DNA from: Naegleria gruberi
Taxonomy: Eukaryota
Length of the DNA: 64,000 nucleotides
Assembly (NCBI GenBank): GCA_000004985.1
Contig: GG738864.1
Reading direction: 5' to 3' (one strand)
Shown here piece after piece: positions 6,159 through 49,864 of this stretch. The notes below the pieces were generated by a model. The model was not told the origin of the DNA. It did no database searches and saw nothing but the letters and a program-made list of their open reading frames with translations. Positions within the stretch are counted from its first letter, which is position 1; the number at the start of each line of letters is the position of its first letter. Both the position numbers and the translations under genes were made by a program.

Positions 6159-7650
6159 ATGTCCACAACATTCCTTGGTATTGTCATTCATTTTGCCAAT
6201 CCTTTGAATGGCGAGAATCAGAAATTACTTCTCGGAAAGAAAATCAACATTAACGATTATGATCACTTGATCACTCTGATAAAACAAAAGATTAATGAGA
6301 GTAATTCATCATCGAGTATTGAATATAATTTTTATAACGTCTTGTTGGAGGTGGAAGATGTAAATAGTAAAGGATCGTTTCATAGGCTAACGAATTTTGA
6401 TGAATTAATAACAAACAAAGACAAGGCTATACAAATTAAAGTTTCATCAGTTGAAATTGTTTCAAAGAGTAAAGAAGCTAAACCAACAGAAACTTCATCT
6501 CCTACCGATCAATCATTAACATTCCGATTGAGTCAATGTGCCAATGATGAATTTACTGATTATCAAGAGGATTTTGAAGATAAATTAATTTATGGAGATG
6601 ATTTATCGACAGTGGAAAATAATGCACAAGCACAGAGAACTGCCAGATGGAATGGAAGATACGAACCAACAACACTATTGGGATCTGGAACTTTTGGAAA
6701 AGTATTTCTTTGTGGAGAGTATGCATTTAATGGTACTCATAAAGGAACTGTTGCTGTGAAATTGATTAATTTATTAGGAACTGTTGAAGATTTCAATAGG
6801 AAAATTAAGGTTAGTTTTCTTTTTGAGATTTATAATGACTCTTTATTAGGAAGCCCTCTTCATGTTAAAATTGAAACACGATTCTATTATGCCATGTTTG
6901 GACTTGTTTGAAATTTATGATAAGGATACAACAGAACAATCGTTGGCAATTGTGTCTCCATATTATATTCATGGTGATTTGATGAAACAATTGCAAACAC
7001 AAAAGGAAAAGAAGGAACCACTTCCAGAGGAAATTATTTTTTCAATCACAAAAGATATACTCAGTGCTTTAACATATTTACATTCTAATGTTGGTGTGGC
7101 ACACAGAGATATTAAACCAAATAATATTTTCTTGGAAAAGATCAATTTGGGAAGGAAAACAGTCAAGATGGTTCTTGGAGATTTTGGAATAGCTCGAGAA
7201 ATGACAAGTGAAACAATGAAAAATGCCACAACTGCAGGTACACCACTCTATCTTGCTCCTGAAGTCAATTTTGGTAATTACAATTTCAAATGTGATATTT
7301 ATTCATTAGGTGTTACCCTATATCAAATGCTAAGCTTGGATTTGGAAACAAATTTGATTTCAAAATGTTTTTCAAACCATCCTTTAGATACATTACAACA
7401 ATCTTCCAATGCCAAGTACATTTCTGATTACACAGAACAAATGATTATGAGAAACTATCCAAAAGAAACCAAAACACTGAAGAAACTGAAAGGTAAGCAA
7501 TTCTCTTAATAATGAGATTTTTAATCTTTTCAAAAAGAAATGATGTTTTTAATGTTGACATACAACTACAAAAAGAGACCTAGTGCCAAATACTTCCTAG
7601 AGCAACTTGAAAAGAAAGGAATTAAGCAGTTATTTGGATTCAACAAATAA
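6159..7650 (+). CDS. Ser/Thr protein kinase with an N-terminal non-catalytic domain (3 exons)
   Basis: Exons are 6159..6809, 6850..7492 and 7538..7650. A 40-nt intron (GTTAGT...TTATTAG) splits subdomain II-III (VAVK...NRKIK | EALFMLKLKH). A 45-nt intron (GTAAGC...CAAAAAG) restores subdomain XI (KRPSAKYFLEQL). Kinase motifs are GSGTFGKV, VAVK, HRDIKPNN, DFG and GTPLYLAPE. The stop is TAA at 7648. Confidence 0.75.
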
Positions 7651-11432: not shown

Positions 11433-13391
11433 ATGCAAGCAAGTTTATTGACAATTTATTGTCTGTTCTTTTTCATTGCCGTAAAAGTTGTGAATGCCCA
11501 AACGTGCACAGCCTCTTCTTTGATCTCCAATTTTACATCCAGTCAAGCTTTATCCGTACGATGCCAAGTTGGTTATGCTGCTGACACTCATCAATTACAA
11601 TGTAGACCTTACGATGTTGTCTTTAATGAAAATTATGGTAAGCCATGTAATTTCACAAGTGAATGTTTATTGTCATTTGTGTGTAGTGATCTATCAAAGA
11701 TTTGTGTTCCTTCCAAATCAAGAAAACTTGGGGAGCCATGTCTTGCAAGAGAAAGCTGTGTTGCTGACCTCGCTTGTGCCAATGGGATATGTGCACCACT
11801 TGTTGATAGTTATGAAAAGAAATTAGGAGAAAAATGTAGATACTCTGACTATACAACTAACAAGTATTACTACTGTGCAAGCCCAAATAAGTGTGACTAC
11901 ACAACCTATCCTAATTACTATTGTTTTGAGAATGTTTACAATGGTGTTGGAGGTTTTTGTGGTATCAATGAAACCTCTTTCCAATTTGTTCTTTGTAATC
12001 CTGGGTCTCTTTGCAATTCTAAAACTCAAAAGTGTGTCACAACCTATTACAATGCAACACTTGGTGATGCATGCAATACGTTCACAACAGATTCCTTCAT
12101 TGATTGTAAATCTCCATTCTATTGTGATGCTGGAAAATGCTTTGCTTCAGCATTTGTTGGAGCTGGTGAGTCATGCAATTACAAAAATACTACTTCATAT
12201 ATCATGAATTATTGCAATAGTAATTTCTTTTGTGGTCCAGGATCAAAGTGTGCAACATCAATTTCATCTCCGTTGGGTGGTTATTGTGGACTGAATGGTA
12301 CTGATTACTACTCTTGTGCTTCTGGTACTGCTTCTTGTTATATTGATAAGTGTGTTCCAAATGTTAAGTCGAACGTTGGTGGATTGTGTGAAATTGTAAA
12401 CTCTACAGGATCATTTTCTTGTAACTCTTCATTATATTGTTTCAATAATACTTGTATGGAAAAGGGTAATTTGGGTCAAAGTTGTGAACACAATACTAAT
12501 TCATGCAACTTGGGTTTAGTTTGTAGATCTGTGCTTCTTGGGAGTAGTCCAAGAACATGTGAAAATCCTGGCAAGAAATATGATAATTGTACATCAGTAT
12601 CTGATTGCCAAAGAGAATTATTTTGCAAAAGATCTAAGTGTACTAACCTGAATGGAGATCCTGTTGGATCGACATGTACTTTCCACTCTGATTGTGATTC
12701 TGGATTATGCTTGAATAACATCTGCTCATTGAATTACAATGAAACTACATGTTCAAGTGACACAATTTGTTCGAATTATGAGTCCAAGTGTTCGTGTGGT
12801 TCAGGGAAGTCAACATCAAACAGTTCAGGAAAATGTGCTAGTCTGAAGAGATGTAACGCTCTCCAAAGCAATATCAATGTCTGTCTTGGTAACAATGCAA
12901 GAGGTCCTCTTTTGACAACCATCTTTGACAAGTACAGTTCTGTTCACAAGGCATGCGCCAAAGAATTCTCTCAATATTATTCATGCTTAAGAATTGGATT
13001 GACCAATGCAGGAAATGTTCCTGCTTTACCCATTTCTGGTTTAGATATTAATGCAGATTTCGATATTGACCCAGCTCCTACCAAGTTTTACAAGTGTGGT
13101 GCTACCATTAGTTTAGGTACTAATACATGCTCAGGAAATGGTGATTGCGTTGCTGATGAAGTGTGTAAATGCTACTCTGGGTACTTTGGATCATATTGCC
13201 AAAGTAAAGTTATTCCAAAGCCATCAAATCCAATTGTACCAAACAAGTCCCTAGGTAATAATAATGGAGGAGGAAGTAATAGAAATGAAACTAATCCTAC
13301 TTCAGGATTTGCTGCAAATAATTCGAAAGAAAATCTATTGCTGCTTACCTTTAACATGATCATCTTGTTTCTGGGTATCAGTTTCCAATAA
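11433..13391 (+). CDS. Secreted cysteine-rich repeat protein, probably GPI-anchored
   Basis: The track start at 11391 is a GTG, and the first in-frame ATG at 11433 opens a signal peptide (MQASLLTIYCLFFFIAVKVVNAQ). The body has many Cys-rich modules with C-x-C and CxxxC spacing and numerous N-x-S/T sites. The C-terminus is hydrophobic (LLLLTFNMIILFLGISFQ) after small residues, consistent with a GPI signal. Confidence 0.65.
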   Translation: MQASLLTIYCLFFFIAVKVVNAQTCTASSLISNFTSSQALSVRCQVGYAADTHQLQCRPYDVVFNENYGKPCNFTSECLLSFVCSDLSKICVPSKSRKLGEPCLARESCVADLACANGICAPLVDSYEKKLGEKCRYSDYTTNKYYYCASPNKCDYTTYPNYYCFENVYNGVGGFCGINETSFQFVLCNPGSLCNSKTQKCVTTYYNATLGDACNTFTTDSFIDCKSPFYCDAGKCFASAFVGAGESCNYKNTTSYIMNYCNSNFFCGPGSKCATSISSPLGGYCGLNGTDYYSCASGTASCYIDKCVPNVKSNVGGLCEIVNSTGSFSCNSSLYCFNNTCMEKGNLGQSCEHNTNSCNLGLVCRSVLLGSSPRTCENPGKKYDNCTSVSDCQRELFCKRSKCTNLNGDPVGSTCTFHSDCDSGLCLNNICSLNYNETTCSSDTICSNYESKCSCGSGKSTSNSSGKCASLKRCNALQSNINVCLGNNARGPLLTTIFDKYSSVHKACAKEFSQYYSCLRIGLTNAGNVPALPISGLDINADFDIDPAPTKFYKCGATISLGTNTCSGNGDCVADEVCKCYSGYFGSYCQSKVIPKPSNPIVPNKSLGNNNGGGSNRNETNPTSGFAANNSKENLLLLTFNMIILFLGISFQ

Positions 13392-13776: not shown

Positions 13777-16700
13777 ATGAAAGCATGTTTTTTCGTTCTA
13801 CTCTTGCTCTGCATCTTTCTGTTCAGCCTTGCAAGTCAAATTGACTCACAAAGCCTTCAATATAATATCAGCACGGTTGCAGGTGGTGGTTCTATTGTGG
13901 GTGATGGTTTATTAGCTAATGAGGCTATAACAAGCTACCCGTGTCAATTGGCAATTAGTTCGATTAGTGGAGATTTGTTTTTTGGAGAGGTGGTATCCAA
14001 TAGGATTCGTAAAATTACATCCTCAACTGGTGTGATATCTACTATTGCTGGAACTGGAACTGGTGCATATGGTGGAGATGGCTCCATGGCTACTGCTGCT
14101 CAATTGTTTTATCCTTATGGTGTTGCTCTAAGTTTGGGTGGTGAAATTTATATAGCAGATTCGAATAATAATAGAATTCGTAAAATAGCTACAAATGGTA
14201 TTATTACAACAATAGCAGGAACTGGAACACGTGGATATGATGGAGATGGTGCTTTGGCCACAAGTGCCAAGTTGAATTTTCCTTCATCCATAGCAATTAG
14301 TGCAACCAATGAAATTTATTTCACAGACCAATTGCAATCATAGGATTCGAAAAATAGCAACTAATGGTAATATCTCAACAATTGCAGGAACTGGAACTGG
14401 CAGCTATGGTGGTGACAATGCAATTGCAACAGGTGCACAACTTTATGCACCTGCATGTATTGCAATAGATTCTAATGGTGAATTTTACATTTCCGATTCA
14501 ATGAACCATCGTATTCGAAAAATAGCTACTAATGGTATTATTACAACAATAGCAGGAACTGGAACACATGGATATGATGGAGATGGTGCTTTGGCAATTA
14601 ATGCACAATTATACAGCCCCACGGGGGTTGTTGTCAACTCAAATGGTGATGTTTATATTGCTGACTCAGGTAATAACAGAATTCGAAAAATCTCAAAAGG
14701 ATACATCTCAACAGTAGCAGGAAATGGAATAGCTGGATATAGTGGAGATGGTGGACTATCAACAAGTGCTCAATTAGCCACTCCCCAATCAGTTGCTATT
14801 AATTTAAATGGCGAGATTATAATTGCAGATTCTAATAATAATAGAATTCGTAAAATAGCAACTAATGGAAAAATTTCAACAATTGCTGGAACATCATCAT
14901 TTGGAAATAACATACCAGCTACTTCAGCATCCATCTCACCAGTTGGTGTTCCCACTCTCTACAATAATAAGATAATTTTCGCAGATGAATCTCAAATTAG
15001 ACAAGTAGACCTTGCAACTAATATCATTTCATTAATATCTGGAACTGATTATTTGGCAAGTCCTACAGCAGCTATGTATTTCAACAATGAATTATATATT
15101 CTCTATTCAAAACTCAATTTAGATAAGCCAAAGATTAATATTGTTTCAAGAGTTGTTGGTTCTGAGGGATATAATGGCGATGATATTGCAGCCACTAGTG
15201 CACTGTTGAATTATGCTCGCTCAATTGCTGTCAATTCAAATGGTGATGTTTATATTGCTGACACTTATAATAACAGAATTCGTAAGGTCTCATTTTCAAC
15301 TGGAATCATTTCAACAGTAGCAGGAACTGGAATTGCTGGACAAAATGGTGATGGTAATTTAGCTACAAGTGCACAACTAAATTTTCCTTCAGGAGTTGCT
15401 GTGAGTTCAAATGGTGATATTTATATTGCTGACACTGAAAATCATAGAATTCGTAAGATAGAAACTAATGGATACATTGCAACAGTTGCAGGATCTGGAG
15501 CATCTGGATATAGTGGAGATGGTGGGCTGCTAACTAGTGCTAAATTCCAACAACCTCAAGGAGTGGCTGTGAGTTCAAATGGTGAGATTTATATTGCTGA
15601 CACTGAAAACCATGTGGTTCGTAAAATTTCAACTTCGAATGTACTTTCTACAATTGCTGGAACTGGTTCTTATGGATACAATGGTGACGGTGGATTGGCA
15701 ATTACTGCAAAATTATTCTCTCCCATAGGAGTTGCAATAAGTTCGAGTGGTGAAGTTTTTATTGCTGATAATAACAATCACAGAATACGTAAAATTGCAA
15801 AAGATGGCTATATTTCAACAATTGTTGGCACTGGTTTGAATGGGTATGATGGAGATGGCGATTTGGCTACGAATGCTAAATTGGGTAATCCTCAAGGTGT
15901 GACTCTAAGTCCAACTGGTGAATTGTTTATTGCTGACCAAAACAATCATAGAATTCGTAAAGTAGCAAGTAATGGATATATTTCAACTGTTGCTGGTAAT
16001 GGTAACTTTGGATTTAGTGGAGATGGTGATTTGGCAACAAATGCTGAATTGAATAGTCCTTCAGGAATAGCATTCAGTTCCATTGGTACCATGTATATTG
16101 CTGATCGTTTAAATAGAGTAATTCGAAGAGTAATCTCTGGTAATATATCCACCATTGCTGGAGGTGTTGGTGATGGAGGACCAGCTACTGGAGGATACAT
16201 TCAAGCACAATCATTTGACATTTCTTCAACTGGTGAGATTTATATTGCTGACACTGAAAATCATAGAATTCGTAAAGTTTCAACATTGGGTAAAATTTCA
16301 ACTATTGCAGGAACTGGTGCAATGGGATACAGTGGTGATGGTGGATTGGCAATTACTGCAAAATTATCCTCTCCCGTAGGAGTTGCAGTTAGCTCAACTG
16401 GTGAAGTTTTTATTGCAGACCGAGACAACCATAGAATTCGTAAAGTAACACTTTCTGGTATCATTACAACCATTGCAGGAAATGGAACTAGTGGTTTTAA
16501 TAGTGATGGAATTGAAGCAAAATTTGCTCAATTGAATAGCCCTTCCTCAGTCACAATTTCAGGTGGTGAAATCTATATTGCTGACACAAACAATCATAGA
16601 ATTCGTCAAATATCCAATACTGGTATTATTAAAACAATTGCTGGAAATGGATTTGGTGGATATATTGGTGATGGTGTATTGCCACCTAATGCTCAATTGA

Positions 16701-19700
16701 ATAGTCCTTCAGGAGTTGCAATTTCTTCCACTGCTGAAATTTACATTGCAGAAAATAAGAGAATTAGAAAACTTACAGCGTTCTGTACAGAGAATGGTGT
16801 GTTGATTGATGGAAAGTGTGTATTTCAATGTTTTGGATATACGAATAGTAATTCCTCACTTGTTTGTTCTGGAAAGGGCAACTGTATTGGAAATGATAAG
16901 TGCAACTGTTCATGGCCATACTCTGGTTCCAAATGTGATGAGTTTTATTGCAATGGAGTGTTGAATACTAACAAAACATTTGTGTGTTCATCTCATGGTA
17001 CTTGCTCATCTCCAAACAATTGTTCTTGTGTCGATGGTTTTTATGGAAATATTTGTGAATTCTTTTATTGTAATGGCGTACAACAAAATAGTTTAAATGT
17101 ATGCTCAGGTCATGGACTCTGCTCTTCTTTGAATAATTGCACCTGTCAACAAGATTATTCAGGCATTGATTGTGAAAATTTCCATTGTTATGGACTGTCT
17201 AGAGTTGATCCTAAAGTTTGCTCATCTCATGGAATTTGCTCTTCCATAAATAATTGCTCATGTGCAACTGGATATGGTGGATCTAAATGCAACGAATATT
17301 CATGTTATGATGTGAATTCTACGAATAAGACAGTTTGTTCTGGAAGAGGAACTTGTTCTTCTCCCAATAATTGTACATGCGATCCAGGATACTATGGATC
17401 AAATTGTGAATTGTACGATTGTTATGGAATATCCAAAAACAATTCGAATGTCTGCTCAGGACATGGTACTTGCATTGCTATCAATAATTGTACATGTACA
17501 GATGGTTACTATGATACCAAATGTGATTCATTCAATTGTGCAGGAGAGAAATTCACTGGTCAATCACTGTGTCAGAATAATGGTACTTGTTCTAATCCTG
17601 GTAATTGTGATTGTCCTTATCAGTTTGGAGGTGCCAGATGTGAATATTACAAATGTTATACCTATACTTCTAATGAAGCAAAAGTATGTGGCGGGCATGG
17701 TACTTGTTTAAATTACAATAATTGTTCTTGCTCTGGCAAGTGGATTGGTGACGATTGTACACAGACTACTTGTTATGGTAAAAGTTCAAACTCTAGCTCA
17801 GTATGTGGTGGAAGAGGTAATTGCACAGACTTTAATCAATGCACATGTTATGATGGGTATAGAGGTGTCGAATGTCAACACATTGTCTGTTTTGATAAGA
17901 TTGAAAACGATACATCAGTTTGTTCAGGAAATGGCAAATGTCTAACATCAAACAATTGTACATGTCAAATTGGTTATGTTGGAAATGAATGTCAATATCA
18001 CGAAATTTATTTGAATACCTCATCTGCCATAATATTTTCATTCCAGGAAAGTTTAATGAAATTGTTGCCAAATGAGAGTGGAATATTTTCATGTTCTGAA
18101 ATTTTCACTGATTCTGAAATTGCCAAATTTGGAGAAAGTACTTCGATTTCTTGCCAATGGAGAAGAAATTCACTCCTAATTCATCTTGGATTTGATTATT
18201 CTATTCAACAATACTCAATTATTCAATCAAAATTCAACTTTTCAATGAGAGTTTCTAGCTTGTCCTCAGTTTCTAATAGTGATGCTCCATCTCCAACTTG
18301 TTCTTTCGGATATGTATTGAATGAAGCTTCTCCATTATTGGATGTAGTGATACGTTTGAATTGTGATGAGAATTTGCATGGTTTTAAAAAGAGTAGAACC
18401 AGTTGGATGTGTAGTCAATGTACAGGAGCAATTTCATCAATTTTAAGTAACTATTCGAATAGATCCAGTGTTTATATTCCAATTTCGTATATGAACGCTT
18501 TGAATCCTGTTCAAGGATACAAGACAATTAATTTGCAAGCTTCTTATTCATCATCTGTTTCTTCCACCATTTCCACTAGTAAGGAAGTAAAGGTTCAAAC
18601 CTATACGAAATCTTTACCTCCAAGTTATTACTGGCTAAGTGATAATTATGATGGAAAAACCTATTCATGTGTTGGCCATAATTGTATCATTGAAACTTCA
18701 TTGAATAGTTTAAACTCCTCAATTTCTTATTCATTCTCTGGTTTATTTAGTTTATTGAACACTGATTTATATTCGAAACAAATGGTGAGATTGATAAATG
18801 AATTTTCAGGAGGAATTGTCGACAGTGAATTCAGTTCTAACATGCAAGTTTTTGGAGTTCAACTCAAGACCTATGTTTACTTACCGTATAGTATTGATTC
18901 ATTCAAATATTCCACATTTACAAATTTGGATTATGTCATGACAGGCGTCAATAGAACCTACTCAATCAATGCAGATAACTTAATAACTATAGGTTTGACT
19001 ATTGATGATCCATACATTTCAAAATACACATTAAGTGATTACATGGTATTCTCCTGGAAATGTTTCCAAGTTTCTCCTTCTAATAGGTCTTTAATTTTGA
19101 CCGATAATTTGTGTTCCTCAATAACTGACAATGCCAAATCAAATATTGAATTGGATATCAGCAAAATGTCTTTGAAAGAAGGTTCATATTTAATATCTGC
19201 TTCAATTTCATCGACTAAATACTTTGTTACAACAGTTTACAATTATGAAGGATGGATTGACTTGTTGGGAATTTCACAGGATTCTCCTCAGATAACTACA
19301 GATTATGTACCTGCTATTACTCCTTCTCATCACAATATTTATTTAAGAAATGTGGTGAAATCTTCAACAAGTGTTTCATTCTATTGGAAACTCAAAAGTG
19401 GTGAATTGAATATTGACGAAACTGTTGAAGATTTCCTTCAAAGAAATACAGTTTCTAAATCTATCTTGGGTAACAATGTTGAAATTATCTTGAATATTGA
19501 CAATGATTATCTCATCCAAGGAGAATATTATGAATTTGAATTGTCAACCAAGAATTCTAACGGTGTTTCAAATATTTCCATTTCAACAAGAATGGATTTC
19601 ACTCCTCGATTGTCATGTAATGTGGAAAATGTGAAGAATGAAGCTAACTTGACCAGTTTTGAATCTTTAATATCTATTACATGTGTAAAATTGCCATACG

Positions 19701-22134
19701 AAAGTATATCAAGTTTCGTCATGGAATTCCATTCACAAAACGAAAGATTAGGAGTCATTTCGAATACTCCAAAGAAGGCTCTTATTACCAGAGTTCCTTA
19801 TGCAATGGATGGAACAGTTACCTTAATCGTGAAACTTCAAAATTTATATGGATCTATTGGAATTTATAGAACTACTATCAGCGCTCAATTACCAAATGCT
19901 TTGACAAGTGACAACTCTATTTCTTCAAGATTTACATATGTATCCAAACAATTCCAAATTCTCAAAAATGCTCAACCAGCCAAAATTGAAGTTTCCAACG
20001 AAGTCAACACCTTACTTTCTTTATTAATCCAAAACGAAACTCTTTCTAAAATTTCAGAGAAAATTTCAAAGGAATTGAAATCTGATCAATTAGTTTCCTT
20101 TAATACAATGCTCAAAGAAATGCTAACCCTCACCAAGAGTCTACAAGACATTACTTACAAAGTTGATGAAAGATTAATTCAATTAATTCTGCCAATTGTC
20201 AACAAAATTTCCACAATTCTCAAATTAACTCTTGACACATCGTCATTATCCAATTTTGCTTCAGAATTGGAAATTTGGTTGGACTGGATTTATTCAGGAA
20301 TGAATAAGGCACTCAATTACTATCCAACTTTCATTTACAAGGAATTATTAGATGAATTTCATTTACAAGAAATTGTTTCGTTACAAAATATACTTTCGAA
20401 TATATACCAAAATAATTTGGATCAACAATTTAAATACCACAAGTACAATTTACAATATATCAAGCTTACAGGAAGTAATAGTGATAATTCAAGCTTTGTG
20501 GAAGATGTTGAGTTTTCTGATTTATTGAATGACAAGTCAATTTCACTTTCTGTTTCTAATTTTAAAGTTGATATGAAATTACCAAGTGATTTTACCAATC
20601 AAATTTCATTGAAATCAAAATCAAAACTATACTATTCCATTACCTCATTCAGTGATAATCAAACTGGTTCAAAACTTTTACAAAACAAACCAATAATTGA
20701 CCTATCTCTGTACGATACATCTTACAATGCAATATCAGTTGACAACATTAATCCACCAATAGTTTTCAAGTTCCAAGGATTGTTTTCCACTAACAAGACT
20801 AATATTAACACAACTTGTGTCTATTACAATACCATACTAGGAAAATGGTCAACCAATGGATTGCAAACAATTACAAGCGTTACCAAACGAACTGAAGAGT
20901 ACATGTACTTTGATATGGAATGTCATTCAAGTCACTTGTCTGTATTCTCAGTTCAAGAGGTTGATTACAACACCCCAATTATACCAGCCATTTCATCTAA
21001 CAAAGCTTCAAACCAACAAGAAAATCTCACCATTATTTTAGCTACTGTTTTACCTGTTAGCTTTTTAATCCTTATTTTCATTATTATCCTCTTTGTGTTT
21101 ATCATTTTACTATTCAGATTTAAGCAAAAGAAAGCAAATGAATTTGCCATTGCAACCAAAACCAATCTTGAAATGGAAGGTTTCTCAAGCAGTGATTTCC
21201 CATCCTCAGAAGGAAGCATGTTTATTCATCCTCTTATGAGTATTTCCTCAAATGGAACAACTAGTGAAGCATTCAATCCATTGTCAAGATATTCTGATTT
21301 AGTAAGAATTGGCCAAGGAGCTTTTGGAAGTGTTTTTAAAGCATTTGATAGTAAGACGTCAACTGTTAAGGCGATTAAGGTAATTAAATATTCATCCATG
21401 GAGGAGTTGAATAATTTCATGAAAGAAGGAACGCAGTTGATGAATGTGACACATCCTTATATTTTGAGAGTGAATGATTTCTTTGTGAGTAAGGATCAAT
21501 TGCTATGTATAGATATGGATTTTTATGAATTAGGAGATTTGGTCAAATTGACCAATGTTGAATTTGATTGCTCGGAGAAGTTAATCAAACAAATTATTTA
21601 TCAAATGTGTCAAGCTTTGGATTATATTCACTGCAATATGAAAATCATTCACAGAGATATCAAACCATCTAATGTTTTTGTAAAGAGTATGGAAAATGAC
21701 GATATTCACATTATTGTTGCCGATTTCGGATTGGCTAAATCAAATATTGGTGGATCAATGAATAATTCCTATGCAGGTACACCTATATTTATGGTAAGTT
21801 TTCAAATATTTCTTTCGATTCGAATAATTTTTAGTCTCCTGAACTTGGCTTGGGTGGAAAATATTATTACAATACTGATATTTACAGTTTAGGTGTTACT
21901 GTATATCAAATAATGACCAAAGACACCTCTACTTCAATCAGTCAATTGTATCTTGGAAAGGAACAAAATGAAGTTACAACGCTATTGAGAAAAAAGCTTA
22001 AAGATGGTGGACATTATTCTGAACGAGTTGTGGAATTGGTTTTACAAATGTTAACAAAGGATAATTTAACTAGGCCACAAGCTCAAGATATTTTGGAAAA
22101 TTCCTATTTTGATGATTTGAGAATGAAACGATAA
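13777..22134 (+). CDS. Giant receptor Ser/Thr kinase with NHL beta-propeller repeats, EGF-like repeats, a TM segment and a kinase domain (single-base frame disruption near 14332; one 41-nt intron)
   Basis: The signal peptide is MKACFFVLLLLCIFLFSLA. About 28 NHL-type repeats (...YIADSxNNRIRKIxxNG.ISTIAGTG...) run through ORFs 13777..14343 and 14300..21892, which differ by one base. About 15 EGF-like modules (C..G.C...N.C.C..GY.G..C) follow, then about 1000 aa of unknown ectodomain, a TM helix (IILATVLPVSFLILIFIIILFVFIILLF) and a kinase (GQGAFGSV, AIK, HRDIKPSN, DFG, GTPIFM). A GTAAGT...TTTTAG intron at 21794..21834 leads to exon 21835..22134 (SPELGLGGKYYYNTDIYSLGV). The stop is TAA. Confidence 0.7.
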
Positions 22135-22252: not shown

Positions 22253-23599
22253 TTATTCTTCATCTGATTCGAAAGCCACATTCTTCTTTTTAGGGAATGT
22301 TTGCAGAGCTCTAGATTTTCCTACCGGGCTACTAACCAGTGGATTTGAGATTAATCTACTAAAACTTCCACTATTTGTAGAAAGGGACAGTTGTGCAAGG
22401 GATTGTTTCAAGGTTTCACAAATCTCTTCCCATTCAGGTCTTGCATTCATGTCTGCTGACCAGCATTTAGTAATGAGCTTGATTATCAAATTATTTACAA
22501 CGTTATACTCAATTCTAAAGTGCTCACCAAAGAACATTTCCCTGAGCTCTGTTTGGGTTGGTATCTTTGGACGCATTTCTTCATGAATCACTTTGTGTGT
22601 AATATCATAAATGTTGAGTCCTGGATACAACTCCTTTTCAAAAATTAACTCATATATACAAATGCCAAAACTGTAGATATCCGCTTTGAATGAATAATGA
22701 CCTTCTGCCAAAATCTCTGGAGCAGTAATTTCAACTGTACCACATTTAGTGTGCTTCTTTTGTTTGTTGTTAAATAGCCTAGCAATACCAAAATCTGAAA
22801 TCTTTAGAGTCCAGTCATTAGTTACAAGGCAGTTAGATACTTTCACATCAGAGTGAATAATATTTTTTGATTTGAGATAGTTCAGTCCGTTAGCAGCGTC
22901 CAATAGCAATTTACATTTCTTTTTCAGGGTGAGTCCAGATTTGAAAGAGCTCTTTTGTAATCTTCCTTGTAAGGTCTCATCATCGATTGAAAACCTGGAA
23001 ATGTGTTGTGTATTGAGCTTTATCAGGTTGGTGTCATCTAGCTCCGTTGTCGGTGGGTGATTAATAGGACTCATGGTCATGCCTGCACCAGAATAGGATG
23101 TTTTCAATAGTTTGTCTAAACTTCCTCTCGAGCAATATTCTGTGACAATATAAAAGAATGGAGGTTTGATAGATGCAGCAATGAACTGCACAATATTTGG
23201 ATGTCTGATTGTACTCATTATTTGAGTCTCCTTCATGTACTCTTTCAGTGGATCCTCCAACAAGTCACAAATTAAGCATTGCTTGACTGCAACAAGAACA
23301 TTGAGATATCGTGCCTTATAAACAACTCCACTACTACCAACACCAATTTGTTCCATCAATTCCAAATCATCAGATGAAATACTCATACTTCTCAATTGCG
23401 GAGAGACTCGAATGATCGCATCATTCAATTCCTTTGACAAATCATTGTATGGTAACTCTTCTGGATTTTCAACAGGTTTCAACTTGTTGAAATGTGCATT
23501 CAAATCTTCAGCAATATGAGAGCTAGTATTTAAATCCGTTAAACCACTATCATTCAAATCAATTACTATCGAATTTGAATTATCAACCCTTGATCCCAC
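22253..23599 (-). CDS. Protein kinase (TKL-like, non-RD catalytic loop HSDVKVSN); 5' end unresolved
   Basis: The ORF has GVGSSGVVYKA, AVK, IIHSDVKVSN, DFG and APE-like motifs, and stops at TGA at 22253. The track's M at 23599 is a GTG, and no in-frame ATG precedes the kinase domain, so an upstream exon is likely. The overlapping TM-containing ORF 23566..23925 is a candidate (see findings). Confidence 0.55.
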   Translation of the reverse strand: MGSRVDNSNSIVIDLNDSGLTDLNTSSHIAEDLNAHFNKLKPVENPEELPYNDLSKELNDAIIRVSPQLRSMSISSDDLELMEQIGVGSSGVVYKARYLNVLVAVKQCLICDLLEDPLKEYMKETQIMSTIRHPNIVQFIAASIKPPFFYIVTEYCSRGSLDKLLKTSYSGAGMTMSPINHPPTTELDDTNLIKLNTQHISRFSIDDETLQGRLQKSSFKSGLTLKKKCKLLLDAANGLNYLKSKNIIHSDVKVSNCLVTNDWTLKISDFGIARLFNNKQKKHTKCGTVEITAPEILAEGHYSFKADIYSFGICIYELIFEKELYPGLNIYDITHKVIHEEMRPKIPTQTELREMFFGEHFRIEYNVVNNLIIKLITKCWSADMNARPEWEEICETLKQSLAQLSLSTNSGSFSRLISNPLVSSPVGKSRALQTFPKKKNVAFESDEE

Positions 23600-27014: not shown

Positions 27015-28142
27015 TTAGGCTGCCCCCTCCGGTCCAATATTATTGCTGGAAATATCTAGTATTACCAAGTTGGGCAATCTACTTATTGCTCTAGCACCTT
27101 CCACACCAAAATGATTATAAGAAATATCTAGTTCAGTCAATTGTGTCATTTCACCAATGTAATTAGCTCCTGTTGCATTCATCTTTGTTGCACTAACATT
27201 CAAAATCTTTAAATTCTTCAATTTCTTAATGAATCTAGCACCCTCAGATTCTATTATATTTGATTGAACATCGAGGAGAGTGAGATTTCTTAGTTGAGAT
27301 ATAAATTTAATTCCTCCCAATTCAACAATATTGAAGGTAGCTCTCAATTCTATTAAATTCTTCATTTCTCCCAAATATTTAGCTCCTTCTGGATTAATTT
27401 CATTCCGACTCACATCTAAACTTGTCAAATTCACTAATCCACTAGAAAGAAGTCTCATGCCCTCTGGACCGTTATAATATCCACTAATCTTTAAGTATTT
27501 TAAATTATTCATCCTTGCAATAGCTTCAAACCCTTCCAAATCAATCATATTCCAGCAAATAACAAGTGAAGTCAACTGTTTCATCTTGCTAATTGAAATA
27601 GCTCCGTTAGGTCCTATGTTATTCAAAGGTATTTGCAATGTTTTCAAATTCTTCATTTTACTAATATATTTGGCTCCTTTACGCCCAACAGAATTTTTCC
27701 CAATATCCAAATAGGTCAATTCTTTCAGTTTGCTGATTAGTTTTGCCTCCTTTTCTTTTAATCCATTTTCATTAATCGAAAGACAAGTTAAATTTTTCAT
27801 TAATGACAAAACTGTTAAAAATTGTTTGTCTCTAATAAGATTCGCATAATTGACCTTAACATTTCGAATAGAGTTAAGCACTTGACTATTTCTCAAGTGT
27901 TGAACTCTTTCCTCTTGAATAATTTGATGAAAATCCAAACAAAGTTTAGAATATTGGTTGATCAAGAAGTAGGTCCATTGTTTGGAAATTAAAGGACAAT
28001 ATTTTAAAATTTCCCAACCTGTTAGAAAGCTCATAATTTCATGTATAATATCATCAGGAAGGAAATTATCTGAAAAGTTTCTAATAGAAACCTCGTGTGG
28101 TGTCGTTAATTTGGAGTTTCGCATTTTTTTTATTGTAAACAT
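27015..28142 (-). CDS. F-box / LRR (ribonuclease-inhibitor type) protein ending at an in-frame TAA inside the repeat array
   Basis: The first ATG is at 28142..28140, and the track start at 28157 is a GTG. An F-box motif (LPDDIIHEIMSFLTGWEILKYCPLISKQW) is followed by about 12 LRR_RI repeats. The TAA at 27017..27015 falls mid-repeat (IGPEGAA*). The same frame then continues with two more LRR units (ISGMSNLKSL...GAKSISGMKQLTILNISNN...) down to a TAG at 26829. Confidence 0.6.
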   Translation of the reverse strand: MFTIKKMRNSKLTTPHEVSIRNFSDNFLPDDIIHEIMSFLTGWEILKYCPLISKQWTYFLINQYSKLCLDFHQIIQEERVQHLRNSQVLNSIRNVKVNYANLIRDKQFLTVLSLMKNLTCLSINENGLKEKEAKLISKLKELTYLDIGKNSVGRKGAKYISKMKNLKTLQIPLNNIGPNGAISISKMKQLTSLVICWNMIDLEGFEAIARMNNLKYLKISGYYNGPEGMRLLSSGLVNLTSLDVSRNEINPEGAKYLGEMKNLIELRATFNIVELGGIKFISQLRNLTLLDVQSNIIESEGARFIKKLKNLKILNVSATKMNATGANYIGEMTQLTELDISYNHFGVEGARAISRLPNLVILDISSNNIGPEGAA

Positions 28143-28268
28143 TTCAATATGGAACACTCTTGGAACTTTTTCGAATAGTATGTCAAGTTGTATCCACTGA
28201 TTAATTGTAAACTATTCCACAACCTCTTAAATTTCCCTTAATTATGAAACAAAACTTTACAAAAAAAA

Positions 28269-29314
28269 ATGAGTCAAAATGATCAAGGTTCACCACTATC
28301 ATCAAATTTTGTATTTTCGGAACAGCGCTGTGATGATGAAGAAAATTCCTTCCCTTTGGAAACAGCGATATTAAAAATGAACATCATGATGATAACGGTA
28401 TTAATTTTAGAGATCAATTTCCTGATGAAATGTGTTATGAAGTATTGTCCTTCCTTTCGCATAGATTTATTTTGAGGACGTGTACGCTGATTTCGTCTCA
28501 GTGGTATAATGTTATTAAGGAACGTTGTTTGTTTTCGACTATGTTCAATTCACCCGTTACTAAAGAAAGAGCTCAATTGATGATTAATAGCCCCTTTCTG
28601 GAACGAATAATCTCTGTAAGTTGTACACAAGCAGCAACTACATGTAAACAATATTGGAAAGCCATTGGAATGATGAAACGATTGACTTATATTAACACAG
28701 TTAGTAACCAAATAACCTCGAATGTACTGTACATTATTAAGAATATTACAAAATTGAAATCGCTCCAGACATTATATATTGGATTTAATCCATTAGGAGA
28801 CGAGGGAGTTAAATTATTGGGTGGAATACCCAGTTTAACAAGTCTTAGTATTTGTGCAACCTCCTCAACTTTTGAATCAATGGGAGCTATTAGTCAATTG
28901 AAGAATCTCAATTATCTTGATGTTGCTTATTGTGACATTGGCGTGGAAGGGTCTAAAATAATTAGTGGAATGACCCATTTAACTGAACTTGATATTTCTC
29001 AGTCAAATATTGGGTCGGACGGAGTTAAATATATTTCTCAAATGTCAAATTTGAAAAATTTATTTATACCTGCAAATGAAATATTGGACGAAGGGGCTTT
29101 ATTTATTAGTAGTGGATTGAAAAATCTCACATTTCTCGAAATCAGTTGTAATGCACTGACGGATATAGGAATCTCAAGTATAGCTAAAATGAATCAATTG
29201 GAAGGTTTAGCCATCAACAAGAATAACATTGGTGAGGAAGGTAGAAAAGCTCTCACTCAAATGAAGGCATCCAGAACTAAATTTTATTTAGAATGTGATG
29301 ATTTGGTCCAATGA
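28269..29314 (+). CDS. F-box / LRR (RI-type) protein, apparently frameshifted between ORF 28269.. and ORF 28430..
   Basis: ORF 28430..29314 starts one residue into an F-box (FPDE|MCYEVLSFLSHRFILRTCTLISSQWYNV) and carries LRR_RI repeats. The upstream ORF 28269..28475 (MSQNDQGSPL...) overlaps it in another frame. One extra A in the A5 run at 28373-28377 would fuse them into a single protein. The two genes sit head-to-head about 130 bp apart, and the partner is the F-box/LRR gene at 27015..28142. Confidence 0.5.
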
Positions 29315-29396
29315 AGGTTTGAGTCCTCGCAACCAAAGACATTTAGATTATTAAAGGTGTCATCAAGTTTTAGTCAAACTGTTGCTGTAGCATGAT

Positions 29397-30902
29397 TTAT
29401 TTTTCTTTTGAAAATTTGAATCTATTTCCAAGGGCTAGTTGGAACAATGAGGAAGATAGAGAAATACCCTTCTTCAAACCAATTGCTTGATTCGAAGATC
29501 CTCCAACAGTTACAGACAAATCAGAGGCACTGTGTACATCTGGAATGTTCACTTTTTGTTTAGCATTCAGTTCTGGAGCTGAATTGCCACATACTCTTGC
29601 CTTAATGTTTGTCTTCCTAGAAAATATTGACCTCTTATTATTGCTGGCGTCGGATGTTGTGGTTTTAGATCTCTTTCTCGTTAAAAAGGCCTTATGTTCT
29701 GAGGAGGCCAGAGATTCTTCCTCTCCTTCTGAACAATCTGTGATATCACTTTCTGTATCACTACTCGTTTCATTGTTTCTATAGTAAAATAATGAGTCTG
29801 TGCTGCTGCATAGAGACTCACTTCGTGGTGTGGATGTTGAGGTTGGAGTTCCAGATTTGACTTTTCTTGGTGTTGTTACGAAACCAAAGTCAGTTCCTTC
29901 TTGTTGCAAGTTATAGATGCAATTCCAGGAATCAGTGAGCATGAGAACCTTTTTGAATACCTTATCAACGTGGTATCGTTGTTTGGCACTAACTTCAATA
30001 TAGGAGGAGAGATTGTGTTTCAATTTCATTTCTCTCATTGCTTGTCTGACTTGTTTCTTTGAAACAACCCTTGAACACATCATATCAATCTTATTGGCAA
30101 TTATTATTATTGGGAAATGTTCAATTTTGGATAATTGAAACTTTTTCTCTTGGACTTCTGCAACAAGTTGCTTCATTTTCTCAAAACTCGATTCGTTGGT
30201 AACGTCAAATACAAACACAAAAACTAAACTTTCTCTGATATAAGAGTCTTTCAAGTCTGCGTATTGATCTGAACCAGAAGTGTCTGTTATGTATAATTCG
30301 AAAGTTTCCAACTCTGTCTTTCTCACAATTTTGCTGTAAGATTCTTGAATGGTTGGATCATGGAAATTAGGGAAGGATTTTTGAACATATTGGGAAATGA
30401 TTGAGGTCTTGCCACATGCTTCATCTCCAACTAGGCACATTCTGACCTTTCTATTGTAATGTATCGAATAGTTATTCGATACATAATCGTCTTCTTCGTC
30501 CATTGTAGTGGACACTGTATCAAGAAAATCGCTTTGCATGGTGGCAACATCAAGTGATTGACTATGCAATCTATCAAAATGTTGTTTACATGGTGTTCTT
30601 GGAGTGATATCAGATTCACTCTTTGTAGCAGATGAAAGATTTGAAACAGTTCTCTTCAAAACTTGATCTGTTATAACATTAGACCTTTGAGTCAATCCAT
30701 CAGAGTTGGTAATAAAGCATGATCTCAATGAATATGGAGAACAATTACAAAAGATTGAATTATCATCTACAAAGAGTGTGTCCATCCCACTGCAATAACT
30801 TATCGAGCCACTCAATCCACACAAATCACTACTCGATGAATAAGTGGTCGTCATCCCAAAATTGACACAATTACTACTACTTGTCTTTTTATAAGCTGAC
30901 AT
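29397..30902 (-). CDS. Ras-like small GTPase with N- and C-terminal Ser-rich extensions
   Basis: ATG at 30902. The central GTPase domain has G1 GDEACGKTS, effector TIQESY, DTSGSDQY, G4 ANKID and G5 SAK. There is no CAAX, and the gene is intronless. Confidence 0.7.
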   Translation of the reverse strand: MSAYKKTSSSNCVNFGMTTTYSSSSDLCGLSGSISYCSGMDTLFVDDNSIFCNCSPYSLRSCFITNSDGLTQRSNVITDQVLKRTVSNLSSATKSESDITPRTPCKQHFDRLHSQSLDVATMQSDFLDTVSTTMDEEDDYVSNNYSIHYNRKVRMCLVGDEACGKTSIISQYVQKSFPNFHDPTIQESYSKIVRKTELETFELYITDTSGSDQYADLKDSYIRESLVFVFVFDVTNESSFEKMKQLVAEVQEKKFQLSKIEHFPIIIIANKIDMMCSRVVSKKQVRQAMREMKLKHNLSSYIEVSAKQRYHVDKVFKKVLMLTDSWNCIYNLQQEGTDFGFVTTPRKVKSGTPTSTSTPRSESLCSSTDSLFYYRNNETSSDTESDITDCSEGEEESLASSEHKAFLTRKRSKTTTSDASNNKRSIFSRKTNIKARVCGNSAPELNAKQKVNIPDVHSASDLSVTVGGSSNQAIGLKKGISLSSSLFQLALGNRFKFSKEK

Positions 30903-49278: not shown

Positions 49279-49393
49279 TTTTTAATGATAAGAAACCTCC
49301 TAAGTTGCTCCTTCAAACAACAACTCACTTGCCAAGGAATAAACATGGATTTAATTAGAAACATTGGGAGTAATATTTTGATGAGATCAAGAA

Positions 49394-49466
49394 GCCGACA
49401 TAGCTCAGTTGGGAGAGCGTAAGACTGAAGATCTTAAGGTCCCTGGTTCGATCCCTGGTGTCGGCA
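49394..49466 (+). tRNA. tRNA-Phe (anticodon GAA)
   Basis: The sequence is GCCGACATAGCTCAGTTGGGAGAGCGTAAGACTGAAGATCTTAAGGTCCCTGGTTCGATCCCTGGTGTCGGCA. It has a 7-bp acceptor stem (GCCGACA/TGTCGGC), a D-loop AGCTCAGTTGGGAGAGC, an anticodon loop ACTGAAGAT, a T-arm GGTTCGATCC and discriminator A. There is no intron, and it is followed by a T5 run. Confidence 0.9.
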
Positions 49467-49468
49467 AA

Positions 49469-49473
49469 TTTTT
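49469..49473 (+). terminator. Pol III T-run downstream of tRNA-Phe
   Basis: TTTTT lies 3 nt after the tRNA 3' end. Confidence 0.5.
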
Positions 49474-49864
49474 ATTCCGATAATAACTAATAAGGTGGTA
49501 AGAAAGAAGGGGTACAGAGCAAGACCTAGAAATAGAAGAAATTCTTCATCTAACTTCAAAGAAAGTTTATTAAGGTGGAATAAGAAGGAAAAAACGACAA
49601 CACAGGTTCCAAGTTGTCTCTAACCTCAGTACTGATTGGAAAATTCCATTCCTTTTAAACAATTTAAAACTTGGAAATCGTCTAATACATTCAAATTCCA
49701 CTGTTTCAATAATTCAATCATAAATTCCTTATCATTTCTTAGAGAAGGTGGTTATTTTGAAATGAAAATATTTCAAACCCATTTCCTTATCATTTCCAAT
49801 TTGGAAATGAATAAATTGTAGCAAATCTTAAAGCACATTGAATTATTGTAATTGTTGGATTATT

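What the first reader, a model, noticed from the sequence alone, without database searches (positions are those of the whole stretch)
13777..22134. Giant NHL-propeller / EGF / transmembrane Ser-Thr kinase receptor
About 28 NHL repeats (enough for 4-5 six-bladed propellers), about 15 EGF modules, a roughly 1000-aa orphan ectodomain and a TM helix are fused to an eukaryotic protein kinase with an HRDIKPSN catalytic loop. That is a teneurin-like ectodomain logic on a receptor kinase, and I do not know this architecture from characterised families. A soluble kinase with a closely related catalytic domain lies nearby at 6159..7650, and a secreted Cys-rich GPI protein is the immediate upstream neighbour (11433..13391). 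Homology is inferred from motifs.
Basis: partly seen in the sequence, partly recalled or inferred. Interest (0 to 1): 0.6.

Follow-up and report, generated by a model that had tools for sequence, protein, structure and literature searches.

The report
Naegleria giant GAIN-domain receptor kinase
This Naegleria gruberi gene encodes a 2,771-residue cell-surface protein that joins adhesion-type outer domains and a self-cleaving GAIN module, best known from animal adhesion GPCRs and polycystin-1-type proteins, to a single membrane helix and an intracellular Ser/Thr kinase, a combination I could not find described in the literature.

Summary
The window is Naegleria gruberi DNA. Positions 13777..22134 (+) hold one gene of 2,771 codons. 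It is interrupted by a 1-nt insertion near 14328 and by a confirmed 41-nt intron (21794..21834).

From N- to C-terminus the protein has:
- a signal peptide
- about 18 NHL blades, enough for three propellers (not 28 blades)
- 10 EGF modules of 39 aa (not 15)
- about 310 aa that remain unassigned
- about three Ig-like beta-sandwiches
- a GAIN domain with a conserved GPS site, H-L|S, about 30 aa before the only TM helix
- a complete STE20/NEK-like Ser/Thr kinase

So the "orphan ectodomain" is largely explained. At least three N. gruberi paralogues and an N. fowleri homologue carry the same layout in one reading frame, so it is one gene. Beyond unnamed metagenome fragments, the family appears only in Naegleria, and the public entries are uncharacterised.

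My best reading is an adhesion or mechanosensing receptor kinase whose GAIN domain self-cleaves. Cleavage and signalling are inferred, not shown.

The teneurin likeness is limited to domain types. The neighbouring kinase is only 31% identical. Whether this copy is intact depends on whether the 1-nt insertion is real.

The parts
13777..22134 (+). Whole CDS of the giant receptor kinase. It runs 13777..14327, then one extra base near 14328, then 14329..21793, then the intron 21794..21834, then 21835..22134. The product is 2,771 aa once the extra base is removed.
   Evidence: Paralogues with the same layout.
13777..13839 (+). Signal peptide (MKACFFVLLLLCIFLFSLASQ). The N-terminus aligns with that of paralogue P0055.
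   Evidence: Hydropathy analysis finds only two hydrophobic segments in the protein. P0055 N-terminus.
13861..16777 (+). NHL repeat region, aa ~29-1000. It has 17 RIRK-type motifs at a 56-aa period plus one degenerate blade, about 18 blades in all (three six-bladed propellers inferred).
   Evidence: Pfam NHL 5.5e-98 and TEN_NHL 1.2e-79. Motif count. TRF period 168/169.
14327..14334 (+). 1-nt insertion (frameshift) inside an NHL blade. It brings TAG at 14332..14334 into frame. Deleting any one base in 14318..14333 restores a 2,771-codon ORF.
   Evidence: DNA alignment of repeat copies shows one extra base. TRF period is 169 here against 168 elsewhere.
16784..17995 (+). Ten tandem teneurin/tenascin-type EGF modules (39-aa period, 62 Cys), aa 1003-1406.
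   Evidence: Pfam EGF_2 9e-33, EGF_TEN 1.7e-26, EGF_Teneurin 1.7e-22. Module count.
18002..18931 (+). Unassigned ectodomain segment (aa 1409-1718). It is conserved within the family (for example the CQWRRN motif), has no Pfam match, and its AF2 model has low confidence.
18932..19882 (+). About three Ig/FN3-like beta-sandwich domains (aa ~1719-2035). The model confidence is moderate.
19859..20446 (+). GAIN subdomain A-like helical bundle (aa ~2028-2223).
20492..20959 (+). GAIN subdomain B beta-sandwich (aa ~2239-2394), which includes the GPS motif.
20813..20953 (+). GPS motif (aa 2346-2392): C2347 ... W2357 ... G2361 ... C2382-HSS-H2386-L2387|S2388-VFSV. The predicted scissile bond L2387|S2388 lies within 20933..20941.
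   Evidence: Pfam GPS 21.6 bits, E 3.2e-4, just below the gathering cut-off of 22.5; 4 of 5 family members match. C, W, G, C, H, L and F are invariant in 10 sequences. In the model the site sits in the turn between the last two strands.
21029..21115 (+). The single transmembrane helix (aa 2418-2446), followed by RFKQKK (positive-inside).
   Evidence: Kyte-Doolittle maximum 3.65; the only internal hydrophobic segment.
21290..22110 (+). Ser/Thr protein kinase domain (aa 2505-2764), split by the intron. It has GQGAFG, AIK, HRDIKPSN, DFG and SPE. The closest solved kinases are STE20-family (MST3/STK24, STK25, SLK) and NEK1.
   Evidence: Pfam Pkinase 1-263/263, 176.8 bits. Motifs. PDB search.
21794..21834 (+). 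41-nt spliceosomal intron (GTAAGT...TTTTTAG) between kinase subdomains VII and VIII.
   Evidence: The spliced product aligns over 287 aa with intact N. fowleri P0057 and completes the Pkinase profile (compared).

Best explanation
The locus is one gene of Naegleria gruberi. It is a further member of a small family that, apart from unnamed metagenome contigs, was found only in Naegleria. It encodes a giant type-I 'adhesion receptor kinase'.

Shown:
- a signal peptide
- about 18 NHL blades
- 10 EGF modules
- a family-specific segment of about 310 aa
- Ig-like beta-sandwiches
- a GAIN domain whose GPS motif keeps the catalytic H-L|S triad, the first and third GPS cysteines and the tryptophan, about 30 residues before the only TM helix
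- a cytoplasmic STE20/NEK-like Ser/Thr kinase with every catalytic motif intact

Inferred mechanism:
1. The NHL propellers and the EGF stalk bind an external partner such as prey, substratum or another cell.
2. The GAIN domain cleaves itself at L2387|S2388 in the secretory pathway. The protein then sits at the surface as a non-covalent N-terminal-fragment/C-terminal-fragment (NTF/CTF) pair, as adhesion GPCRs (aGPCRs) and polycystin-1 do.
3. Ligand binding or pulling force on the ~2,370-aa N-terminal fragment changes the state of the C-terminal fragment (stub, TM helix and kinase), for example by shedding and clustering.
4. That switches on Ser/Thr phosphorylation inside the cell.

The copy in this window carries a 1-nt insertion in the fourth NHL blade. 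Either this is an assembly error in an otherwise intact gene, or it is a very recent or allelic inactivation. Every other codon is open.
For: Organism: a neighbouring gene is 100% identical to an N. gruberi protein.

Domains: Pfam NHL 5.5e-98, EGF_2 9e-33, Pkinase 7.4e-52 after splicing. Only two hydrophobic segments exist, and there are 37 N-glycosylation sequons outside against 4 inside.

One gene:
- The ORF is open for 2,530 codons in 33% GC DNA.
- The paralogues P0055, P0056 and P0070/P0001 and the N. fowleri protein P0057/P0067 have the same order of domains in single models.
- The P0055 N-terminus aligns with 13777 onwards.

GAIN domain:
- Pfam GPS matches 4 of 5 family members at 21.6 bits, just under the cut-off.
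- The family profile finds GPS-positive Naegleria proteins, one of which UniProt calls 'GAIN-B domain-containing'.
- A 10-sequence profile of the beta subdomain hits solved aGPCR GAIN domains, and 9 of its 10 hits with E up to 10 are aGPCR chains: ADGRG1 2.8e-5, ADGRL3 3.9e-5 over 111 positions, ADGRG3, ADGRF1.
- The AF2 model shows a helical subdomain of about 190 aa plus a beta subdomain of about 160 aa. Five strands cover the GPS, and HLS sits in the last turn.
- The retained C1-C3 pair and the joint absence of C2 and C4 fit the disulphide map of latrophilin CL1: C801-C832 and C820-C834, with cleavage after L837 (PMC3321182).

Kinase: GQGAFG, AIK, HRDIKPSN, DFG and SPE are all present.
Against: - No experiment or transcript data were available. 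Cleavage, surface localisation, ligand and kinase activity are all inferred.
- The window protein's own GPS score is below Pfam's gathering threshold.
- The 5-sequence GAIN profile found nothing in PDB sequences.
- Foldseek against the PDB gave no significant match.
- The second GPS disulphide (C2-C4) is missing, and some true GAIN domains do not cleave (BAI3; PMC3321182).
- The tethered-agonist mechanism of aGPCRs has no obvious receiver in a single-pass protein, so the coupling step is speculative.
- The in-frame stop created by the 1-nt insertion would, if real, truncate this copy after 185 codons.
Confidence: 0.6

Rival explanations
1. This copy is a dead gene. The 1-nt insertion at ~14328 is real, translation stops at 14332..14334 after 185 codons, and the locus is a recent pseudogene of a functional family.
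For: The frame break sits inside a conserved NHL blade and is not in a homopolymer run. No convincing intron can bypass it: none of the 161 frame-restoring GT-AG pairs found between donors at 13900-14334 and acceptors at 14320-14800 has the GTAAGT/GTTAGT-type donor seen in the three verified introns of the window. I could not find an annotated product of this locus.
Against: The remaining 2,586 codons are open in AT-rich DNA. Every catalytic and structural motif is intact. The segment upstream of the break is still conserved with P0055. One base error in 8.3 kb of a draft Sanger assembly is plausible (my own knowledge of such assemblies, not tested). The failure to find an annotated product is not informative, because the same searches also missed the 72-86% identical paralogue P0055.
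Confidence: 0.3
2. The GPS-like region is a structural remnant. The protein is an uncleaved adhesion receptor kinase, or simply an adhesin with a kinase tail, and the GAIN-like fold serves only as a rigid stalk.
For: The window protein's Pfam GPS score is sub-threshold. The C2-C4 disulphide that helps hold the scissile turn in latrophilin is absent. Uncleaved GAIN domains are known (BAI3; PMC3321182). Foldseek gave no significant match.
Against: H, L, S/T and the following F are invariant across 10 sequences that are otherwise only 19-37% identical to the window protein, except for the close paralogue P0055 at 74%. That is hard to explain without selection on the cleavage chemistry. The kinase-less relatives keep HLT as well.
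Confidence: 0.25
3. Two genes were wrongly merged: a secreted NHL/EGF protein and a separate membrane kinase.
Against: The frame break lies inside the NHL array, not between the ectodomain and the kinase. One ORF runs without a stop from NHL through EGF, GAIN and TM into the kinase. Four independent homologues show the same fusion.
Confidence: 0.03

Closest known systems
Adhesion GPCRs (latrophilin/ADGRL, ADGRG1/GPR56, ADGRE5/CD97, CELSR)
   Different: The protein has one TM helix instead of seven. The output module is a Ser/Thr kinase, not a G-protein-coupling 7TM, so there is no pocket for a tethered agonist. It has only one of the two GPS disulphides, and subdomain A is larger. It comes from Discoba, whereas the GAIN-7TM module is reported to have arisen in stem holozoans (PMC12716839).
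Polycystin-1 / sea-urchin REJ family (PKD1-like GAIN proteins)
   Same: This is the non-GPCR use of a GAIN/GPS module, placed after a long run of beta-sandwich domains in a giant ectodomain.
   Different: There is no Pfam REJ, PKD or PLAT match, no 11-TM or channel-like region, and a kinase output instead.
Receptor Ser/Thr kinases of other eukaryotes (plant RLK/Pelle, TGF-beta receptors, Entamoeba TMKs)
   Same: Type-I topology: a signal peptide, an ectodomain, one TM helix and a cytoplasmic Ser/Thr kinase.
   Different: The closest solved kinase domains are STE20 and NEK kinases, not IRAK/Pelle or TGF-beta receptor kinases. To my knowledge none of those families has a GAIN domain or NHL propellers.
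Teneurins
   Same: Pfam's teneurin-derived NHL and EGF models match (TEN_NHL 1.2e-79, EGF_TEN 1.7e-26).
   Different: The topology is type I rather than type II. NHL precedes EGF, the opposite order. There is no YD shell, no toxin-like C-terminus and no teneurin intracellular domain.
Kinase-less Naegleria NHL-EGF-GPS-TM proteins (P0061/P0071, P0062, P0063, P0064)
   Same: They come from the same genus, have the same NHL/EGF/GPS vocabulary, and are homologous over the last ~170 ectodomain residues (E 3.8e-11 to 9e-5).
   Different: They are about 1,000-1,400 aa long, have short cytoplasmic tails without a kinase, and lack the family-specific ~600-aa middle region.

Membership tests
GAIN-domain proteins | GPS motif with conserved Cys/Trp and the H-L-T/S cleavage triad | tested here: met
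   C2347, W2357, G2361, C2382 and H2386-L2387-S2388-x-F are invariant in a 10-sequence alignment. Pfam GPS scores 21.6 bits, E 3.2e-4, slightly below the gathering score of 22.5. The profile hits aGPCR GPS regions in the PDB at 2.8e-5. C2 and C4 of the canonical four cysteines are absent.
GAIN-domain proteins | Fold of about 320 aa: helical subdomain A plus beta-sandwich subdomain B, with the GPS forming the last five strands | tested here: inconclusive
GAIN-domain proteins | Autoproteolysis at the GPS | not testable with these tools
   This needs expression with western blotting, or a neo-N-terminal peptide from proteomics.
GAIN-domain proteins | Position immediately N-terminal to the first TM helix | tested here: met
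   S2388 lies 30 residues before the TM helix at 2418-2446.
Adhesion GPCR | Seven-transmembrane domain after the GAIN domain | tested here: not met
   There is only one internal hydrophobic segment and no 7tm Pfam match.
Polycystin-1/REJ family | REJ module, PLAT domain and a multi-pass (11-TM) region | tested here: not met
   No REJ, PKD or PLAT match appeared even at E up to 10. There is a single TM helix.
Teneurin | Type-II topology with EGF, then NHL, then a YD-repeat shell and a toxin-like C-terminus | tested here: not met
   The protein has a signal peptide and a C-terminal TM helix and kinase, which is type I. NHL comes before EGF. There is no RHS/YD match.
Eukaryotic protein kinase (active Ser/Thr type) | Gly-loop, VAIK Lys, HRDxKxxN, DFG and APE motifs, with a full-length Pkinase match | tested here: met
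   GQGAFG, AIK, HRDIKPSN, DFG and SPE are present. Pkinase matches 1-263/263 at 176.8 bits.
Plant RLK/Pelle-IRAK receptor kinases | Kinase domain of the IRAK/Pelle clade | tested here: not met
   The best 60 solved relatives are nearly all STE20-family, NEK1, ULK3, CDPK/CaMK, MAP4K1, CHK2 and RSK kinases, plus one EGFR chain. No IRAK, BRI1 or BAK1 kinase is among them. No formal phylogeny was built.
Type-I receptor kinase (architectural class) | Signal peptide, ectodomain, a single TM helix and a cytoplasmic kinase in one polypeptide | tested here: met
   The same arrangement is present in four homologues. It depends on the 1-nt insertion being an error or being allelic.

The most novel reading that the evidence does not exclude
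In Naegleria (Discoba) a self-cleaving GAIN domain gates a single-pass Ser/Thr kinase. This would be an 'adhesion receptor kinase' that senses adhesion or force in the way adhesion GPCRs do, but signals by phosphorylation. It would mean the GAIN module was an ancient, portable adhesion-to-signal coupler that different eukaryotic lineages wired to different transducers (7TM in holozoans, channel-like proteins in the PKD1 family, kinases in heteroloboseans). It would also mean that GAIN signalling does not need a 7TM receiver for the tethered peptide.
Probability: 0.3. Interest if true: 0.75.

Novelty: new variant of a known kind. Interest (0 to 1): 0.58.

Why it matters
GAIN domains are known as the hallmark of adhesion GPCRs and polycystin-1-type proteins. 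How the domain was used before the holozoan GAIN-7TM fusion is an open question: PMC12716839 states only that the domain predates Holozoa.

A Naegleria family that places a GAIN/GPS module in front of one TM helix and an active-looking kinase is a concrete non-opisthokont example of a different output. It is testable with a cleavage assay, a kinase assay and Naegleria genetics or proteomics.

It also bears on Naegleria biology. The human pathogen N. fowleri has a homologue (FDP41_013523), and giant adhesion-type receptors are candidates for contact sensing during feeding or host-cell attack.

On the practical side, the public models of two paralogues lack the kinase C-lobe because a ~41-nt intron was not spliced. 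The kinome annotation of this organism therefore needs correcting.

Tried and rejected
- The search for homologous proteins returned only one true relative when queried with the middle region plus kinase, and nothing when queried with the middle region alone. It missed the 72-86% identical paralogue P0055 that the exhaustive HMMER search found. I therefore do not claim that the window gene is unannotated.
- Six of the seven exact look-ups found nothing on record: five neighbouring window ORFs and P0055. I could not view the public gene calls at this locus. The seventh look-up, P0001, worked.
It was repeated with plain letters.
- A profile of the whole ~400-aa GAIN region built from 5 sequences found nothing in PDB sequences. 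Only the 10-sequence profile of subdomain B did.
- Foldseek of the GAIN model against the PDB gave no hit at E <= 0.001. The afdb50 library was unavailable.
- An intron that bypasses the frameshift: 161 formal GT-AG pairs restore the frame, but none has a GTAAGT/GTTAGT-type donor like the window's three verified introns. I rejected this as unsupported.
- Assembly collapse between NHL repeats as the cause of the frameshift: the DNA repeats are only 71-77% alike, so this is unlikely.
- Literature searches for Naegleria with GAIN, NHL, receptor kinase or teneurin, and for GAIN in non-GPCR or protist kinases, found no description of this family.


Full report
**Source and setting**

The window has about 33% GC. 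It is gene-dense and contains short GT..AG introns. One of its genes (61083..62435, a UBX protein) is 100% identical to a Naegleria gruberi protein on a 441,990-nt contig. The next best matches are N. lovaniensis, N. fowleri and Willaertia at 50-60%. The window is therefore N. gruberi nuclear DNA. Its other ORFs fit that assignment: VWA, ankyrin, Ras/Roc, RNI-type LRR, EF-hand and kinase genes.

**Gene model**

Frame 1 is open from the ATG at 13777 to a TAG at 14332..14334. A second frame is open from 14300 to 21892, which is 2,530 codons.

The two frames overlap inside one NHL blade. Deleting any single base between 14318 and 14333 joins them into a 2,771-codon reading frame, and the blade then has exactly the length of its neighbours...EIYFTDNCNHRIRKIA... 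against ...EIYIADSNNNRIRKIA.... A DNA alignment of four repeat copies shows one extra base in this copy. Tandem Repeats Finder gives a period of 169 here and 168 in another part of the array.

The repeats are only 71-77% identical at the DNA level, so a collapsed assembly is unlikely. Among donors at 13900-14334 and acceptors at 14320-14800, 161 GT-AG pairs would formally restore the frame. None has the GTAAGT/GTTAGT-type donor seen in the three verified introns of this window. The break is therefore either a base-calling error or a true, very recent or allelic frameshift. I cannot decide between these.

At the 3' end, GTAAGT...TTTTTAG (21794..21834, 41 nt) interrupts the kinase after GTPIFM. 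Splicing gives GTPIFM|SPELGLGGKYYYNTDIYSLGV. It extends the Pfam Pkinase match from positions 1-164 (118 bits) to 1-263 of 263 (176.8 bits). The spliced C-terminus aligns over 287 residues at 66% identity with an intact N. fowleri homologue. The intron is confirmed, and the CDS ends at 22134.

**Domain content**

- Pfam supports NHL (E 5.5e-98), TEN_NHL (1.2e-79), EGF_2 (9e-33), EGF_TEN (1.7e-26), EGF_Teneurin (1.7e-22) and Pkinase.
- Counting the blade signature gives 17 RIRK-type motifs with a spacing of 49-57 aa, plus one 94-aa interval that holds a degenerate blade. That makes about 18 blades, enough for three six-bladed propellers.
- The EGF array has 10 modules with a strict 39-aa period and 62 cysteines.
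- Hydropathy finds only two hydrophobic segments in 2,771 residues: the N-terminal signal peptide and one TM helix at aa 2418-2446, which is followed by RFKQKK.
- There are 37 N-x-S/T sequons before the TM helix and 4 after it. The topology is type I.
- The kinase has GQGAFG, AIK, HRDIKPSN, DFG and SPE. Its closest solved relatives are STE20-family kinases (MST3/STK24 at 1.2e-27, STK25, STK10, SLK, MST4) and NEK1, not IRAK/Pelle or TGF-beta receptor kinases.

**The 'orphan' ectodomain (aa 1409-2417)**

Read by eye, the residues just before the TM helix, TCVYYNTILGKWSTNG...MECHSSHLSVFSV, look like a GPCR proteolysis site. Six lines of evidence were then collected.

1. Pfam GPS matches this stretch at E 3.2e-4 to 8.7e-4 and 20.2-21.6 bits. 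That is just below the gathering score of 22.5. It also matches 4 of 5 family members.
2. A profile of the whole region was searched by HMMER against 1.84 billion representative proteins and found only 13 proteins.
   - Four are full-length relatives.
   - Five match only the last ~170 profile positions. Four of these (P0061-P0064) are shorter NHL and/or EGF proteins of Naegleria or metagenomes with one TM helix. The fifth (P0066) is a metagenome protein with a canonical GPS.
   - Two of those five pass Pfam's GPS threshold: P0063 at 23.2 bits and P0066 at 34.0 bits.
   - UniProt names P0063 a 'GAIN-B domain-containing protein'.
3. In a 10-sequence alignment of the ~190 residues up to the cleavage site, the invariant columns are S, P, I, C, W, G, C, H, L and F. 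These include the GPS positions.
4. A profile of that alignment was searched against all PDB chain sequences and returned ten hits with E up to 10. Nine of them are adhesion GPCR (aGPCR) chains: ADGRG1 at 2.8e-5, ADGRL3 at 3.9e-5 over 111 profile positions, then ADGRG3, ADGRF1 and BAI3. The C, W, G, C, HLT and FAV positions are in register.
5. An AlphaFold2 model of aa 2020-2415 has only moderate confidence (pLDDT 60.5, pTM 0.45). It shows a helical subdomain of about 190 residues followed by a beta subdomain of about 160 residues. Five strands span the GPS, and H-L-S sits in the turn between the last two strands. This is the layout described for latrophilin and BAI3 GAIN domains (PMC3321182).

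Against this, Foldseek found nothing significant, and a 5-sequence profile of the whole ~400-aa region found nothing in PDB sequences.

The GAIN region contains exactly two cysteines. They correspond to C1 and C3 of the canonical GPS. C2 and C4 are both absent. This fits the reported disulphide map of latrophilin CL1, C801-C832 and C820-C834, with cleavage after L837. It means one of the two disulphides that brace the scissile turn is missing. I take the GAIN assignment as well supported (about 0.8). Cleavage itself is untested.

**Family and 'one gene or two'**

The full-length relatives are listed below. Identities to the window protein are given for the GAIN region and the kinase.

| Protein | Source | Length (aa) | Identity: GAIN region / kinase |
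|---|---|---|---|
| P0055 | N. gruberi NAEGRDRAFT_70916 | 2,807 | 72% / 86% |
| P0056 | N. gruberi NAEGRDRAFT_70317 | 2,271 | 39% / 67% |
| P0001 / P0070 | Metagenome contig (P0001); P0070, N. gruberi NAEGRDRAFT_49308, is in its 90%-identity cluster | 2,166 / 2,167 | 39% / 51% |
| P0057 / P0067 | N. fowleri, FDP41_013523 | 2,142 / 2,266 | 27% / 66% |

The three named N. gruberi paralogues lie on contigs of 508, 371 and 418 kb. The window's contig is 442 kb, so the window gene is a fourth paralogue in N. gruberi.

All of these carry NHL, EGF, the same middle region, HL[ST], a TM helix and Pkinase in one model. P0055 starts with a homologous signal peptide and first blade. The 'two genes' alternative is therefore rejected.

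Nothing outside Naegleria and unnamed metagenome contigs was found. As far as HMMER can see, the family is lineage-restricted.

**Neighbours**

The gene at 6159..7650 is a kinase with two short introns (40 and 45 nt). It is only 31% identical to the giant's kinase. The kinase on the minus strand at 22253..23599 is 25% identical. Neither is a close relative, whereas the true paralogues are 51-86% identical.

The upstream ORF (11433..13391) does look like a secreted Cys-rich protein. It has a hydrophobic N-terminus and a hydrophobic C-terminal tail, and it gives weak EGF_2 and DUF7107 matches. I did not examine it further.

**Mechanism**

What is shown is the architecture. The rest is inference from established behaviour of the domain families:
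- NHL propellers and EGF arrays act as protein-interaction and spacer modules.
- GAIN domains self-cleave at HL|T/S and hold the two fragments together non-covalently, so that force or ligand binding can be transmitted to the membrane-embedded fragment (PMC3321182, PMC12716839).
- HRDxKxxN kinases are Ser/Thr-specific.

I propose that the protein is an adhesion or mechanosensing receptor kinase. Engagement of its ~2,370-residue N-terminal fragment alters the clustering or conformation of the C-terminal fragment (stub, TM helix and kinase). Because there is no 7TM pocket, the tethered-agonist step of aGPCRs cannot apply as such. This coupling step is the weakest part of the proposal.

**Novelty**

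Searches of open-access literature found no paper linking Naegleria with GAIN, NHL or receptor kinases, and no report of a GAIN domain on a kinase. Araç et al. reported GAIN domains in Dictyostelium and Tetrahymena. A 2025 study concludes that the GAIN domain predates Holozoa and that the GAIN-7TM module arose in stem holozoans.

A Discoba family that couples GAIN to one TM helix and a kinase is a new variant of known kinds (GAIN proteins and receptor Ser/Thr kinases), not a new category. The paralogues already sit in public databases as uncharacterised predicted proteins.

**Verdict**

The finding is real and more interesting than described, because of the GAIN module. It rests entirely on sequence and modelling, and it carries an unresolved frameshift in this particular copy.

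Noticed in passing
Paralogues P0055 (NAEGRDRAFT_70916) and P0056 (NAEGRDRAFT_70317); equivalent position in the window is 21794..21834: Both public N. gruberi models run into the unspliced short intron (they end ...GTPIFMVSFF... and ...GTPLFMVCYL...). Their Pkinase match stops at 164/263. The deposited proteins therefore lack the kinase C-lobe, which looks like an annotation error.
   Followed up: partly
P0001 (metagenome contig; locus L001 634..7134); its 90%-identity cluster also holds N. gruberi NAEGRDRAFT_49308 (P0070): In P0001 the catalytic loop reads HGNIKTSN instead of HRDIKPSN, and the Gly-loop is GSGRTF. It keeps DFG and the GPS HLS. It is probably a pseudokinase member of the family. 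P0070's own sequence was not read.
   Followed up: partly
P0061/P0071, P0062 (N. gruberi) and P0063, P0064 (N. lovaniensis): Naegleria also has proteins of ~1,000-1,400 aa with NHL and/or EGF domains (P0061 EGF only, P0063 NHL only, P0062 and P0064 both), a canonical HLT GPS-type motif, one TM helix, a short tail and no kinase. Pfam GPS matches P0062 (20.6 bits, below the cut-off) and P0063 (23.2 bits), but not P0061 or P0064. The GAIN-type stalk seems to be a common module of Naegleria surface proteins.
   Followed up: partly
window 6159..7650 (+): A soluble Ser/Thr kinase gene with two very short introns (6810..6849, 40 nt; 7493..7537, 45 nt). It shows that ~40-nt introns are typical here. 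It is 31% identical to the giant's kinase.
   Followed up: yes
window 22253..23599 (-): A convergently oriented kinase gene that lies immediately 3' of the giant gene. It matches PK_Tyr_Ser-Thr at 3.2e-51 and has an insert in the kinase domain. It is only 25% identical to the giant's kinase.
   Followed up: partly
window 11433..13391 (+): A Cys-rich ORF with a signal-peptide-like start, a hydrophobic C-terminal tail preceded by small residues (GPI-like), and weak EGF_2/DUF7107 matches.
   Followed up: partly
window 27015..30902, 39242..40591, 48322..50881: A cluster of RNI-type LRR (LRR_6) ORFs interleaved with Ras/Roc GTPase ORFs. It suggests a local expansion of signalling genes.
   Followed up: no
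window 47044..47877 (+): An ORF that matches the ligand-gated ion channel domain (Lig_chan, 7.7e-16). It is probably one exon of an iGluR-like gene.
   Followed up: no
searches compared: The word-indexed homology search missed the paralogue P0055 (72-86% identical). With the middle region as query it scored nothing, whereas the exhaustive HMMER search found the family. Negative results from the word-indexed tool on this low-complexity, N/S-rich sequence are unreliable.
   Followed up: yes
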